Shown here piece after piece: positions 38,088 to 40,120 of a DNA stretch of 64,000 nt. Positions within the stretch are counted from its first letter, which is position 1, and each line of letters starts with the position of its first letter. This DNA comes from a virus. The translations under genes and the position numbers were made by a program. The stretch covers positions 32,001 through 96,000 of the IMG/VR virus record IMGVR_UViG_3300046464_000709. The stretch is one strand, 5' to 3'. The notes below the pieces were generated by a model, which saw only the letters and a program-made list of their open reading frames with translations, was not told the DNA's origin and searched no databases.

Positions 38088-38663
38088 CTATGCTGTCTTG
38101 CTGTATTGCTTCCAGATTTCAAGATCAAGATCAGTAACGGATTTACCTAATTGGCGAGCAATGTTCTTGAAAATATTCGCGAAATAATGGTATGTATTCT
38201 CCTTCGTTGGCGTGCTCTTTGGGGCGTCCGTGTATCCTTGATCACGAAGGAACCTGAGGATATGAGTGTCGAGCATTGGTTCATCAAAGTCTTCGCGGCT
38301 ATGAGAGAGAAAGAACCTTGCTGTCTTAAGCCCGATACCAGCGACTTCTAAAAGCCTGTTTAATGTAACCGTTTGAAGATCTTGAATCTTTGATACAGCA
38401 ACATAAGAGTTGTATCTTTGCTTGTATGGACTAAGCTTAGCCCAATGCATAATCTCTTGGAGCCGGCCCAATTTAATTAATTTTCTTATACAATTAAATG
38501 GACTTGTTTCTTTTGTTATGTTTTTTGCTCTCTCTATGAACACTTCTAATTTAGGTGCTTCGATTGAACTTTTCTTTCCTGCTACATTAATACAGAATAG
38601 GATAAATTCTTCTAATTCGTTGTGTGATCTATTATAGTTTGTTACTTCAGCTGGATTAATCAT
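38088..38663 (-). CDS. HhH-GPD superfamily DNA glycosylase-like protein
   Basis: HhH VAGIGLKTARFFL, LDTHILRFL, C-terminal LDLEIW. Confidence 0.75.
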   Translation of the reverse strand: MINPAEVTNYNRSHNELEEFILFCINVAGKKSSIEAPKLEVFIERAKNITKETSPFNCIRKLIKLGRLQEIMHWAKLSPYKQRYNSYVAVSKIQDLQTVTLNRLLEVAGIGLKTARFFLSHSREDFDEPMLDTHILRFLRDQGYTDAPKSTPTKENTYHYFANIFKNIARQLGKSVTDLDLEIWKQYSKTA

Positions 38664-38681
38664 ATGTTTTTTTGTTTATGG

Positions 38682-38936
38682 TTATTGTGCAATGTGAAAT
38701 GCTTTACGAAGGTTGTCGCATTCTTGTCCACAAAGAAATACTTCTCTGCAATAGTCAATGTTTTTTGACTCAATATGCTTGATGAGTTTTACTGCTTGAT
38801 GAGCAGGAACTCGATCACGAGGCATGCCTCCCCATTTGATCACTACCCTCATGTGAGGAAAGTGTTCGTTGATTTCAGCAAGTTGAGCTGAGTTGATGTA
38901 TCCGTAGTTCGCAAGAATGTTTTTTATTGTTTCCAT
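38682..38936 (-). CDS. hypothetical protein
   Basis: Start reassigned to ATG 38936, 7 nt after TTGACA-16-CATACT. Confidence 0.7.
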   Translation of the reverse strand: METIKNILANYGYINSAQLAEINEHFPHMRVVIKWGGMPRDRVPAHQAVKLIKHIESKNIDYCREVFLCGQECDNLRKAFHIAQ

Positions 38937-38973
38937 GATATCTAGTATGACAGAATTAAAAGCAATGTCAAAC

Positions 38974-39015
38974 AAAAAAACCTGCCCAAGGAGAGAAAGA
39001 AAAACCTTGGACAGG
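38974..39015 (-). terminator. intrinsic terminator
   Basis: CCTGTCCAAGG...CCTTGGGCAGG followed by T7. Confidence 0.8.
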
Positions 39016-39360
39016 TCTGAATGCATGATTAAGAAATAGATGTGGGAAGGGATTACTGTATACCCTCGACTTTTCGGGATGAACATCAGTTCATTGTGTA
39101 CCTACTTTGCACTACAAATTAGACTTGGCATTCGTCATCGACTCATCCGATTGGACTCTATCGCTCCACCACAGAGAATTTGCATACCTTAGCCCGCTCA
39201 TCACAGGCTTGCTCAGTCACCCACAGGAAGGATTATAAGCCCTTCCAAATAGAATGGAACGAGTCAATGTCCGATACTCAGCTATCAACTCATTGTTCCA
39301 AAAGTGTTTAAAATGTTAAAGATCGATTATTTATTTTGATTAAGTTTGTTTCTTAATTAT
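38974..39360 (-). ncRNA. putative ~390-nt structured non-coding RNA
   Basis: Consensus promoter, no ATG at +1, GC-richer multi-hairpin body, terminator. Confidence 0.65.
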
Positions 39361-39366
39361 GTATCT

Positions 39367-39395
39367 ATTATACTCTATTATTTGTTATTTGTCAA
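39367..39395 (-). promoter_or_regulatory. consensus sigma70 promoter driving the ncRNA candidate
   Basis: TTGACA-17-TATAAT. Confidence 0.85.
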
Positions 39396-39657
39396 GTACT
39401 TTTTTATTATTTGATGTTCTATTTATTCTTAATAAGTCTTCTTGTATTTGATTAATATATTTGTATGTATTATTTGCATCAATTATTTTATTGTTTGGAT
39501 ATTGTGTGCAATGATAAAGATCAGCAATAAATTCATTTAGCTTGGCGAGCTTAACATAAACATATTCTTTTTCAGTTAGCTCGTTACGAAGTTCTTGTTC
39601 TGTGGCGAACATCGAGGCTTTTGGGGATAGTGGCTTAATCATATGAATATTGAGCAA
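39385..39657 (-). CDS. hypothetical protein
   Basis: ORF in operon; start uncertain. Confidence 0.6.
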   Translation of the reverse strand: MLNIHMIKPLSPKASMFATEQELRNELTEKEYVYVKLAKLNEFIADLYHCTQYPNNKIIDANNTYKYINQIQEDLLRINRTSNNKKVLDK

Positions 39658-40120
39658 GTTTATTTAAGTTTTTTTTGTTTGCTTTTAACAAAGAATATGT
39701 TTGAAAAAGATCAGAAATAGATTTCTTTTTCGTGCTACAATTATTGTATTTTGGTAGGTAATTTAAAATAAATTTTCTTTCTGTTTCATTCATCCAAATA
39801 GTGCAAAGACTAGGATTAGGTTTACGAAGAGATATTCTTTTGGTTGAATTTTTACTTACAAGTTTAGCCTCTTTTTCTACTTTGCTCGGAGGAAGCAAAT
39901 AATAAACTTTACTAAAATTTTTGTTCGATTGATGCGACCCCACTCTTTGAAGTAGATTTGCTGTTTGCCCAACATAAACCACCTCATCTTCTTCTGAAAC
40001 CAAGAAATAAACGCAACAAAATTCTTTTGCTTCTCCCTTGAATCTTCTTAATCTGCCAATCTTTTTAATTGATTGTCTGAATTCGGGGTTGATTATTTTT
40101 ATAAACTCTTCCGTTATCAT
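39635..40120 (-). CDS. GIY-YIG nuclease-like protein
   Basis: CVYFL..VVYVGQT.NL..R..SH...E..I...PKYN. Confidence 0.75.
   Translation of the reverse strand: MITEEFIKIINPEFRQSIKKIGRLRRFKGEAKEFCCVYFLVSEEDEVVYVGQTANLLQRVGSHQSNKNFSKVYYLLPPSKVEKEAKLVSKNSTKRISLRKPNPSLCTIWMNETERKFILNYLPKYNNCSTKKKSISDLFQTYSLLKANKKNLNKLAQYSYD

What the first reader, a model, noticed from the sequence alone, without database searches (positions are those of the whole stretch)
38974..39395. Stand-alone ~390-nt structured non-coding transcription unit
Seen: a perfect TTGACA-17-TATAAT promoter (39395-39367, minus strand). Unlike its neighbours it has no ATG at +1. It is followed by a GC-richer body and a strong terminator (39015-38974), and the next gene has its own promoter directly after. 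Helices visible (plus-strand coordinates): TGGAAC 39255-60 / GTTCCA 39295-300; GGAAGG 39226-31 / CCTTCC 39241-46; long-range TGTGGG 39041-46 / CCCACA 39220-25 closing a multibranch domain; ATGAAC-atca-GTTCAT 39079-94; AGGG..CCCT 39048-66; CTCT..AGAG 39157-77; AGCC..GGCT near 39191-39209. CCCTTCC (39240-46) can alternatively pair with GGAAGGG (39045-51), which suggests two conformers. Inference: a phage-encoded structured RNA (sRNA, protein decoy or ribozyme) that I cannot assign to tmRNA, RNase P, SRP or 6S.
Basis: partly seen in the sequence, partly recalled or inferred. Interest (0 to 1): 0.8.

Follow-up and report, generated by a model that had tools for sequence, protein, structure and literature searches.

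The report
Phage manA RNA as own gene
The flagged stretch is a real folded RNA gene of an uncultured marine phage, but it belongs to the already catalogued manA RNA family; what it adds is that here the RNA has its own promoter, an rRNA-style leader and its own terminator.

Summary
There is a 12/12 sigma-70 promoter (39395-39367, minus strand) with no ATG behind it, a structured body, a strong hairpin plus T-run (39018-38972), and then the next gene's own promoter.

The body is not unassigned. Window 39246-39037 matches Rfam manA RNA (RF01745) over the whole model, at 71.3 bits against a gathering score of 55.2.

New here is the packaging, which recurs in 41 distinct units from viral contigs:
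- a promoter;
- a leader with a hairpin and a boxA-like word (GATCTTTAACA; 14 of 17 letters identical to the E. coli rrn boxA-spacer);
- an optional inserted hairpin;
- manA;
- a terminator whose sequence varies (38 of 41 units, against 6 of 184 control windows).

Four RNA libraries hold contigs of the unit. I found no conserved short ORF and no antiterminator complementarity, and the proposed second conformer is not conserved.

Best reading: an autonomous early phage RNA gene rather than a 5'-UTR switch. This fits a 2026 preprint showing that manA RNAs self-assemble into cages in vitro. This scan has already met manA-type RNAs on other DNA many times.

Verdict: new member of a known kind, moderate interest.

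The parts
39367..39395 (-). sigma-70-type promoter: -35 TTGACA 39395-39390, 17-nt spacer, -10 TATAAT 39372-39367. The start of the RNA is inferred at about 39360.
   Evidence: 12 of 12; sequence. A TTGAC[AT] -35 with a -10 at 16-17 nt was picked upstream of the leader in 36 of 41 distinct units.
39341..39357 (-). Leader hairpin, in the boxB-like position: TTAAG-AAACAAA-CTTAA.
   Evidence: Relatives have TTGAG...CTCAA (30 of 41 units). The window, L136, L072 and L069 have TTAAG...CTTAA, a change on both sides.
39309..39325 (-). boxA-like word plus spacer, CGATCTTTAACATTTTA; the core GATCTTTAACA is at 39324-39314.
   Evidence: One search gives the position; 14 of 17 letters identical to the E. 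coli rrn boxA-spacer printed in PMC2724277 Table 1. The core matches 10 of 11 positions of the consensus GYTCTTTAANA of PMC5725501. Conserved upstream of manA in relatives.
39255..39300 (-). Inserted hairpin domain between the boxA spacer and manA P1: outer stem UGGAAC/GUUCCA, inner 8-bp stem, and a small conserved CUGA-GUA-UCGG hairpin.
   Evidence: The same predicted architecture, with changed stems, is found in L126 and L158. The insert is identical in L094. It is absent from about half of the units (distances).
39037..39246 (-). manA RNA core (Rfam RF01745).
   Evidence: 71.3 bits, gathering score 55.2, model positions 1-192 of 192; 94.9% of cells paired against 40-54% when the partners are slid; 24 of 50 pairs change on both sides; 0 of 500 shuffles reach this.
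39168..39171 (-). L5 loop word UGGU, complementary to the L7 loop word GCCA at 39129-39126.
   Evidence: Across 38 distinct cores the variable pair is U-A in 25, C-G in 5, U.G in 1 (the window) and U.U in 7.
38972..39018 (-). Intrinsic terminator: 14-pair hairpin with a 13-nt loop, then a run of U.
   Evidence: -23.6 kcal/mol, z -6.45; a hairpin plus T-run of -14.5 kcal/mol or better lies within 260 nt downstream in 38 of 41 units, against 6 of 184 control windows.
38682..38971 (-). Context, not part of the RNA: the next promoter (38971-38944) and the 84-aa gene it starts, with its ATG at 38936 (leaderless layout).
   Evidence: The same 84-aa family follows manA in 27 of 37 units where an ORF was found. 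It has no Pfam or PHROG family.

Best explanation
The stretch is a gene for a manA-family RNA (RF01745) in an uncultured large marine phage.

Host RNA polymerase starts at a consensus early promoter (inferred). The first roughly 55 nt form a small hairpin followed by a boxA-like word, in the same order as in rRNA operon leaders. I infer that this recruits the host Nus factors, which shield the untranslated transcript from Rho and help it fold. Next come an optional inserted hairpin and the 210-nt manA core. Transcription ends at the RNA's own intrinsic terminator, which rrn-type antitermination does not override. The expected product is a free RNA of about 387 nt.

The RNA is therefore made as a product in its own right, not as the 5' UTR of the next gene, which has its own promoter and no leader.

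What the free RNA does is not shown. The most likely mode, by family membership, is self-assembly through loop-loop contacts into closed oligomers, as a 2026 preprint reports for other manA RNAs in vitro.

Shown: family membership, the fold, the conserved unit architecture, and presence in RNA libraries. Inferred: the start site, Nus recruitment, and assembly in vivo.
For: Family: full-length match above the gathering score. The same call is made in 40 of 41 distinct related units: 11 of 12 loci, 15 of 16 and 15 of 15.

Fold: one search gives 94.9% of cells paired, and 24 of 50 pairs change on both sides (0 of 500 shuffles reach this).

Autonomous unit:
- Promoter.
- Terminator in 38 of 41 units against 6 of 184 control windows, with stems that differ in sequence.
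- A further promoter within 80 nt of the T-run in 27 of 41 units, with the ATG 6-7 nt after its -10 in 25.
- No complementarity between the terminator's 5' arm and manA beyond shuffles: 38 units, mean z -0.2, none below -2.
- One manA per genome in 4 of 4 related virus records, three of them rated complete.

Independent context: in cyanophage S-CREM1, manA lies between tRNA-Leu (which ends 1 nt before it) and tRNA-Asn (which starts at its last base).

Leader:
- 14 of 17 letters identical to the E. coli rrn boxA-spacer (PMC2724277 Table 1).
- Among 29 distinct units fetched by words inside manA, the best match to GYTCTTTAANA upstream is exact in 6, has one mismatch in 16 and two in 7. None of the 29 has one mismatch or fewer in the 250 nt downstream.
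- rrn antitermination acts only on Rho-dependent terminators (PMC2724277, introduction).
- Non-coding RNAs are considered likely Rho targets (PMC4807359, introduction).

Expression: contigs from 4 of 4 RNA libraries laid (3 studies) lie on 39041-39343.

Assembly: the preprint 10.64898/2026.07.01.735769 reports manA 60-mers, decamers and octamers held by L5-L7' and L8-L9' kissing loops. Here the L5 and L7 words are complementary and covary, and ACUG/CAGU in L8/L9 is kept in 37 of 38 cores.
Against: - Two RNA-library contigs run through the terminator into the next gene: X15 record 3 (38787-39070) and X16 record 11 (38492-39242). Termination may therefore be incomplete, or these contigs may come from DNA carried over into the library.
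- Three of 41 units (L003, L032, L144) have no terminator. In L003 an ORF starts 15 nt after manA. In cyanophage P-SSM2 purL starts 15 nt after manA. The family therefore also occurs in 5'-UTR-like positions.
- The same 84-aa gene follows in 27 of 37 units, so a functional link to it is not excluded, although relatedness alone could explain the synteny.
- The boxA-like word is not surprising on its own in this AT-rich window (1 match, 1.9 expected). The window's copy has A where the consensus has C or T. The host and its boxA are unknown, and no binding was tested.
- My helix numbering may not be that of the preprint, whose figures and tables I could not see.
- Contigs cannot show RNA ends, strand or level.
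Confidence: 0.62

Rival explanations
1. Riboswitch-type cis-regulator, as in the 2010 proposal for manA. The manA fold binds a metabolite and thereby sets how much transcription passes the terminator into the 84-aa gene and the genes beyond it.
For: - Rfam files manA as cis-regulatory, and Weinberg et al. 2010 (PMC2864571, passages read) rate it a probable riboswitch.
- The 84-aa gene follows in 27 of 37 units.
- RNA-library contigs bridge the terminator.
- In L003 and P-SSM2, manA lies 15 nt before an ORF.
Against: - The terminator lies 4-175 nt beyond the fold, does not overlap it, and shows no complementarity to it beyond shuffles.
- The next gene has its own promoter directly after the T-run and starts at its ATG, so there is no UTR to act on.
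- In S-CREM1, manA lies between two tRNA genes.
- The papers I searched report no ligand.
Confidence: 0.17
2. A free RNA that acts as a monomer, for example as a decoy or sponge for a host protein or as a base-pairing regulator, with oligomerisation only an in vitro property.
For: The evidence for an autonomous unit is the same as for the best explanation. The preprint shows assembly only after refolding at about 3 mg/mL with 10 mM MgCl2 (methods passage) and contains no in vivo data ('in vivo' occurs 0 times).
Against: The loop words that would make the contacts are conserved and L5/L7 covary. That can also be read as an intramolecular pseudoknot, so this rival is weakened only slightly.
Confidence: 0.15
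3. A short protein-coding gene: the 30-codon ORF at 39204-39112 (VMSGLRY...).
For: The ORF is open in the window, and 12 of 38 relatives keep a stop at codon 30.
Against: - It stops at codon 12 in 4 relatives, and its length ranges from 12 to 37 codons.
- Stretches differ by frame shifts that follow helix changes.
- The first codon is GTC or TTC in many relatives.
- Substitutions preserve base pairs, not codons.
Confidence: 0.02

Closest known systems
manA RNA motif (Rfam RF01745; Weinberg et al. 2010, PMC2864571)
   Same: Full-length model match above the gathering score. It shares the P1 hairpin, the long-range P2, the multi-stem junction, the conserved words GUGACUGA and GGUAUACAGUAAUCC, and a marine phage setting.
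   Different: - The outer stem of the model's long P8 helix is not formed (non-standard pairs marked).
- P1 carries a 7-nt loop with the palindrome UUAUAA instead of the usual GACG loop: 24 of 38 cores, against 7 with GACG.
- The RNA has a leader of about 115 nt and its own terminator. In P-SSM2 and P-SSM4 the fold starts a few bases after the promoter and has no such terminator.
rRNA operon leader (boxB hairpin, boxA, spacer) and Nus-factor antitermination
   Same: The order is hairpin and then boxA, shortly after a strong promoter and ahead of an untranslated structured RNA. 14 of 17 letters are identical to the E. coli rrn boxA-spacer. The unit ends at an intrinsic terminator, which rrn antitermination does not suppress (PMC2724277).
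   Different: Position 2 of the core is A rather than C or T. The host is unknown and no binding was tested. A subset of relatives adds a pseudoknot between the hairpin loop and the linker, which I do not know from rrn leaders (recalled, not checked).
ROOL, GOLLD and OLE RNAs (Kretsch et al. 2025, PMC12286853; listing and start of abstract seen)
   Same: Structured RNAs without a known function that form RNA-only homo-oligomers. That ROOL and GOLLD are often phage-borne and lie near tRNA genes is recalled, not checked here.
   Different: No sequence or model match. manA is far smaller, about 200 nt.
Enlarged or doubled manA-like phage RNAs noted earlier in this scan (e.g. e1-5362657, e1-6108937)
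   Same: Stand-alone phage RNA genes related to manA. Some are described as having a boxA-like leader and a terminator.
   Different: Those are reported as not detected by Rfam. This one is an ordinary single-core manA that Rfam finds. I did not check those notes.

Membership tests
manA RNA (RF01745) | Covariance-model score at or above the curated gathering score over the whole model | tested here: met
   71.3 bits against 55.2, model positions 1-192 of 192, E 3.8e-16 for the whole window.
manA RNA (RF01745) | P1 hairpin, long-range P2 and a multi-stem junction kept by compensatory changes | tested here: met
   on 38 distinct cores: 94.9% of cells paired and 24 of 50 pairs changed on both sides. 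P2 never varies, so it says nothing either way.
manA RNA (RF01745) | Long P8 helix with a 7-bp outer stem | tested here: not met
   The outer stem positions are marked as non-standard pairs. Only the inner hairpin UGAAC/GUUCA is kept (helix 10). This is a peripheral variant and does not stop the model from scoring above its cut-off.
manA RNA (RF01745) | Loop-loop complementarity (the 'pseudoknot?' of the 2010 figure legend; L5-L7' in the 2026 preprint) | tested here: met
   UGGU in L5 and GCCA in L7. The variable pair is U-A in 25, C-G in 5, U.G in 1 and U.U in 7 of 38 cores. Sequence alone cannot tell whether the contact is within or between molecules.
manA RNA (RF01745) | Position in the 5' UTR of a gene (Rfam type Cis-reg) | tested here: not met
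   A terminator and a separate promoter lie between the fold and the next gene in the window and in most relatives.
manA RNA (RF01745) | Self-assembly into closed oligomers (preprint 10.64898/2026.07.01.735769) | not testable with these tools
   No RNA complex prediction is on hand.
rrn-type boxA antitermination leader | Match to the boxA consensus GYTCTTTAANA (PMC5725501) | tested here: inconclusive
   The window matches 10 of 11 positions (A at the Y position). Among 29 independently fetched relatives, 6 are exact, 16 have one mismatch and 7 have two. A single match in the window is no more than chance gives.
rrn-type boxA antitermination leader | Hairpin, then boxA, then spacer, close behind the promoter of an untranslated RNA | tested here: met
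   Hairpin 39357-39341 and boxA 39324-39314, beginning about 3 nt after the inferred start.
rrn-type boxA antitermination leader | Binding of NusB/NusE and resistance to Rho | not testable with these tools
   This needs a reporter assay or a binding assay.
Riboswitch with a terminator expression platform | Alternative pairing between the aptamer and the terminator's 5' arm | tested here: not met
   38 units, mean z -0.2, none below -2, and 2 with at most 5% of shuffles as good. The control used mononucleotide shuffles, so the test is weak.
Riboswitch with a terminator expression platform | A ligand that the fold binds | not testable with these tools
   None is reported in the papers found.

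The most novel reading that the evidence does not exclude
In this phage lineage manA is built like a miniature rRNA operon, with a strong early promoter, a boxB/boxA leader, a structured RNA and an intrinsic terminator. This lets the infected cell produce large amounts of a correctly folded RNA, which then assembles through its L5-L7 and L8-L9 loop contacts, and possibly a palindromic P1 loop, into an RNA-only shell or scaffold with a role in infection. That would be the first biological setting for the manA cages so far seen only in vitro.
Probability: 0.22. Interest if true: 0.8.

Novelty: new member of a known kind. Interest (0 to 1): 0.35.

Why it matters
manA has been listed since 2010 as a probable riboswitch because it usually lies ahead of genes. 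A 2026 preprint shows that it forms RNA cages in vitro but says nothing about its biology.

This locus and its roughly 40 relatives show the RNA packaged as a self-contained gene with an rRNA-like leader and its own terminator. In S-CREM1 it lies between tRNA genes. Both layouts argue that the free RNA is the product.

That gives the structural work a concrete native transcript to study, about 387 nt with leader and insert. It also gives testable loop pairs and a testable link to host Nus factors.

The family itself is not new, and this scan has met manA-type RNA genes on other DNA before.

Tried and rejected
Homologues by BLAST. blastn of the unit or of the manA core against deposited phages found nothing useful: one search gave one spurious 62-nt Staphylococcus phage match, one search gave none, and one search found only S-CREM1 itself. 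I therefore fetched relatives by exact words from viral contigs.

Whole genome. None is held for the window.

Phage identity. A tail-fibre-like protein has no match. The terminase is about 24% identical to Clostridium-group phages, rIIA is at most 32%, and the ligase is 43% to Caulobacter phage Cr30 and 36-37% to roseobacter phages. This is too weak to name a host.

Parts without cover in RNA libraries. None of the four runs laid has cover on 39438-40007, and X17 covers only 39043-39343 of the 3.4 kb laid. Contigs end at 39324 (X15), 39329 (X18, followed by adapter letters) and 39343 (X17), which is 17-36 nt short of the inferred start. No DNA run was laid beside them and contigs cannot show ends, so I do not count this as evidence for a start site or for silence upstream. 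Contig depths were not used to rank genes.

Two conformers: not conserved. Short ORF: not conserved. Antiterminator: none found.

boxA in the window alone: not significant.

P1 loop palindrome. UUAUAA occurs in 24 of 38 cores and UUGCAA in one. This hints at self-pairing of the loop, but there is a single changed case, and the other P1 forms (GACG in 7, GAUA in 6) are plain tetraloops on longer stems. It remains a lead only.

Rows dropped:
- Of 55 BLAST-positive loci, L163 and L145 (short partial matches) and L097 and L061 (cut by the end of the locus) were left out. That leaves 51 loci plus the window, 41 distinct units.
- Alignment A1 holds 38 of 39 distinct cores. L118 dropped out through a script filter.
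- In one search, five promoter picks (L105, L122, L022, L032, L090) fell inside the leader hairpin. For four of them the true TTGACA-17-TAATAT is visible.

Counts corrected. My notebook gives 26 and 24 for the next promoter and its ATG; recounting the output gives 27 and 25.

Supplements. The supplements of Weinberg 2010, the S-CREM1 paper and the preprint were closed. They hold the manA alignments, the gene contexts and the sequences of the imaged RNAs, and they may bear on the helix numbering and on how often terminators follow manA.

Full report
WHAT IS THERE

On the minus strand the sequence reads in this order:
- a -35 TTGACA (39395-39390), 17 nt, and a -10 TATAAT (39372-39367);
- a small hairpin TTAAG-AAACAAA-CTTAA (39357-39341);
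- an A-rich linker;
- the word GATCTTTAACA (39324-39314);
- a 46-nt hairpin domain (39300-39255);
- 210 nt of dense structure (39246-39037);
- an 18-nt spacer;
- a 14-pair hairpin with a run of U (39018-38972);
- immediately afterwards another TTGACA promoter (38971-38944), whose ATG (38936) lies 7 nt after its -10.

The promoter scan confirms the 12 of 12 match, one of two in 34-44 kb. The scan missed the terminator because its loop is 13 nt. Folded, the hairpin gives -23.6 kcal/mol, z -6.45, with 0 of 200 shuffles as good.

There is no ATG within 60 nt after the -10. In contrast, 17 of 36 minus-strand promoter-like sites in the window have an ATG 5-9 nt after the -10 that opens an ORF of at least 30 codons.

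WHAT IT IS

Rfam's covariance models give one match above gathering score in the whole window: manA RNA (RF01745) at 39246-39037. It scores 71.3 bits against a cut-off of 55.2, and all 192 model positions are matched.

The window comes from a large phage. It carries rIIA, a T4-type large terminase, an ATP-dependent ligase and a ClpB-like ATPase. Its protein matches to cultured phages are distant: the tail-fibre-like protein finds none, and the other three reach at most 24-43% identity.

RELATIVES AND ARCHITECTURE

Three exact words from the unit fetched viral contigs. BLAST with the window's core found 55 loci. After four were dropped, 52 units remained, 41 of them distinct. Rfam calls manA above its cut-off in 40 of the 41; L158 is the exception. 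Four related virus records, three of them rated complete at 184-214 kb, each hold exactly one manA.

The packaging is conserved:
- Promoter. A TTGAC[AT] promoter lies upstream; the script picked it in 36 of 41 units, and four of the five mis-picks are visible by eye.
- Terminator. A hairpin plus T-run of -14.5 kcal/mol or better lies within 260 nt downstream in 38 of 41 units. The same test finds one in 6 of 184 same-strand control windows and in 7 of 41 reverse complements. The stems have unrelated sequences.
- Next gene. A further promoter follows within 80 nt in 27 of 41 units, with the ATG 6-7 nt after its -10 in 25.
- Exceptions. L003, L032 and L144 have no terminator. In L003 an ORF begins 15 nt after the fold.

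FOLD

On 38 distinct cores (alignment A1), 94.9% of cells form standard pairs, against 40-54% when the partners are slid by one to three columns. 24 of 50 pairs change on both sides, and 0 of 500 shuffles reach this. P2 never varies.

The 30-codon ORF is not kept. It stops at codon 12 in four relatives, its length varies, and some stretches are frame-shifted.

LEADER

- The E. coli rrn boxA-spacer printed in PMC2724277 (Table 1) and the window's 17 letters agree at 14 positions.
- The core matches 10 of 11 positions of the consensus GYTCTTTAANA of PMC5725501.
- In this AT-rich window one such match is what chance gives. The weight comes from conservation. Among 29 distinct units fetched by words inside manA, the best upstream match is exact in 6, has one mismatch in 16 and two in 7. 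None has one mismatch or fewer downstream.
- The hairpin before it keeps its stem through a change on both sides (TTGAG/CTCAA to TTAAG/CTTAA).
- In 11 units a longer loop is matched by a complementary insert in the linker, with seven different word pairs. That is a pseudoknot supported by covariation.
- rrn leaders have the same order, hairpin and then boxA, and their antitermination acts only on Rho-dependent terminators (PMC2724277, passages). Non-coding RNAs are seen as likely Rho targets, and the Nus/SuhB complex is proposed to aid rRNA maturation (PMC4807359, passages).

The unit thus reads like a miniature rRNA operon. Binding was not tested and the host is unknown.

INSERT

About half of the units carry a hairpin domain between the boxA spacer and P1 (distances). 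The window's insert is identical in L094, whose core is only 87% identical. L126 and L158 keep the same predicted architecture with changed stems.

SWITCH OR PRODUCT

Weinberg et al. 2010 (PMC2864571, passages) proposed a riboswitch because manA lies ahead of genes.

Against that reading here:
- The terminator does not overlap the fold and shows no complementarity to it beyond shuffles.
- The next gene has its own promoter and no leader.
- In S-CREM1, manA is flanked directly by two tRNA genes.

For it:
- The same 84-aa gene follows in 27 of 37 units.
- Two RNA-library contigs bridge the terminator.
- In P-SSM2, purL starts 15 nt after the fold.

P-SSM2 and P-SSM4 also have a TTGACA-17-TATAAT promoter a few bases before the fold. 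Syn9 and S-RSM4 have no manA.

EXPRESSION

Twenty of 24 listed runs hold the stretch or part of it, and six of those are recorded as RNA. Contigs from all four RNA libraries laid (three studies) lie on 39041-39343. Contigs cannot show ends, strand or level.

LINK TO STRUCTURE WORK

The preprint 10.64898/2026.07.01.735769 reports manA 60-mer cages, decamers and octamers. I read its abstract, sections 8 and 13, and further passages. The assemblies are built from pentamers held by L5-L7' and L8-L9' kissing loops. It calls manA a putative cis-regulator and gives no in vivo data.

In my numbering the L5 word UGGU faces the L7 word GCCA. The variable pair is U-A in 25 cores, C-G in 5, U.G in 1 and U.U in 7. 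ACUG/CAGU in L8/L9 is kept in 37 of 38 cores. Whether my numbering equals theirs I could not check.

VERDICT

This is a true RNA gene and a member of a known family. Its conserved autonomous, rRNA-like packaging argues for the free RNA as the product. This scan has already reported manA-type RNA genes on other DNA (349 notes hold the search words). I did not check those notes.

Noticed in passing
window, whole minus strand (e.g. 38971-38936, 40906-40871, 44129-44094): Leaderless layout of early genes: 17 of 36 minus-strand promoter-like sites have an ATG 5-9 nt after the -10 that opens an ORF of 30 or more codons. The same layout follows manA in 25 of 41 related units.
   Followed up: partly
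L023, L007, L021, L118, L107, L090, L005 and others: leader upstream of manA: In 11 of 41 units the leader hairpin has a longer loop whose 4-5 letters are complementary to an insert 12 nt after the hairpin (GGAT/ATCC, GGGC/GCCC, GAGGC/GCCTC, AGAT/ATCT, GGGT/ACCC, GGGGT/ACCCC, AAGCT/AGCTT). This is a pseudoknot with covariation. The window has the short-loop form without it.
   Followed up: partly
window 39300-39255; L094, L126, L158, L001, L004: The domain inserted between the boxA spacer and manA comes in several unrelated forms of about 50-205 nt. The window's form is identical in L094 although the cores are only 87% alike, which suggests exchange of modules. Several forms share the small hairpin CUGAGUA(A)UCGG.
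   Followed up: partly
window 38682-38936 (minus): The 84-aa protein directly after the unit has no Pfam or PHROG family and is conserved in that position in 27 of 37 units. The next gene (38088-38663) matches phrog_11575 and, just above Pfam's cut-off, an Ogg-type HhH domain.
   Followed up: partly
window 39635-40120 (minus); L013 1-348: A GIY-YIG endonuclease-like ORF lies two genes upstream of the manA unit. S-CREM1 also has a GIY-YIG endonuclease next to its tRNA/manA block.
   Followed up: no
L003 10941-11374: A related viral contig carries a tmRNA gene (RF00023, 102.6 bits) about 8.7 kb from its manA.
   Followed up: no
L025 1085-1258 (P-SSM4 record 164884-165057): The annotated hypothetical CDS PSSM4_169.1 overlaps the manA RNA at 164829-165014 and is probably not a gene.
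   Followed up: no
window 39228-39301: One RNA-library contig (X16) replaces this stretch with 19 other letters. It comes from a relative without the inserted hairpin and with a GAUAUC-type P1, present in the same library (tables 5 and 5c).
   Followed up: no
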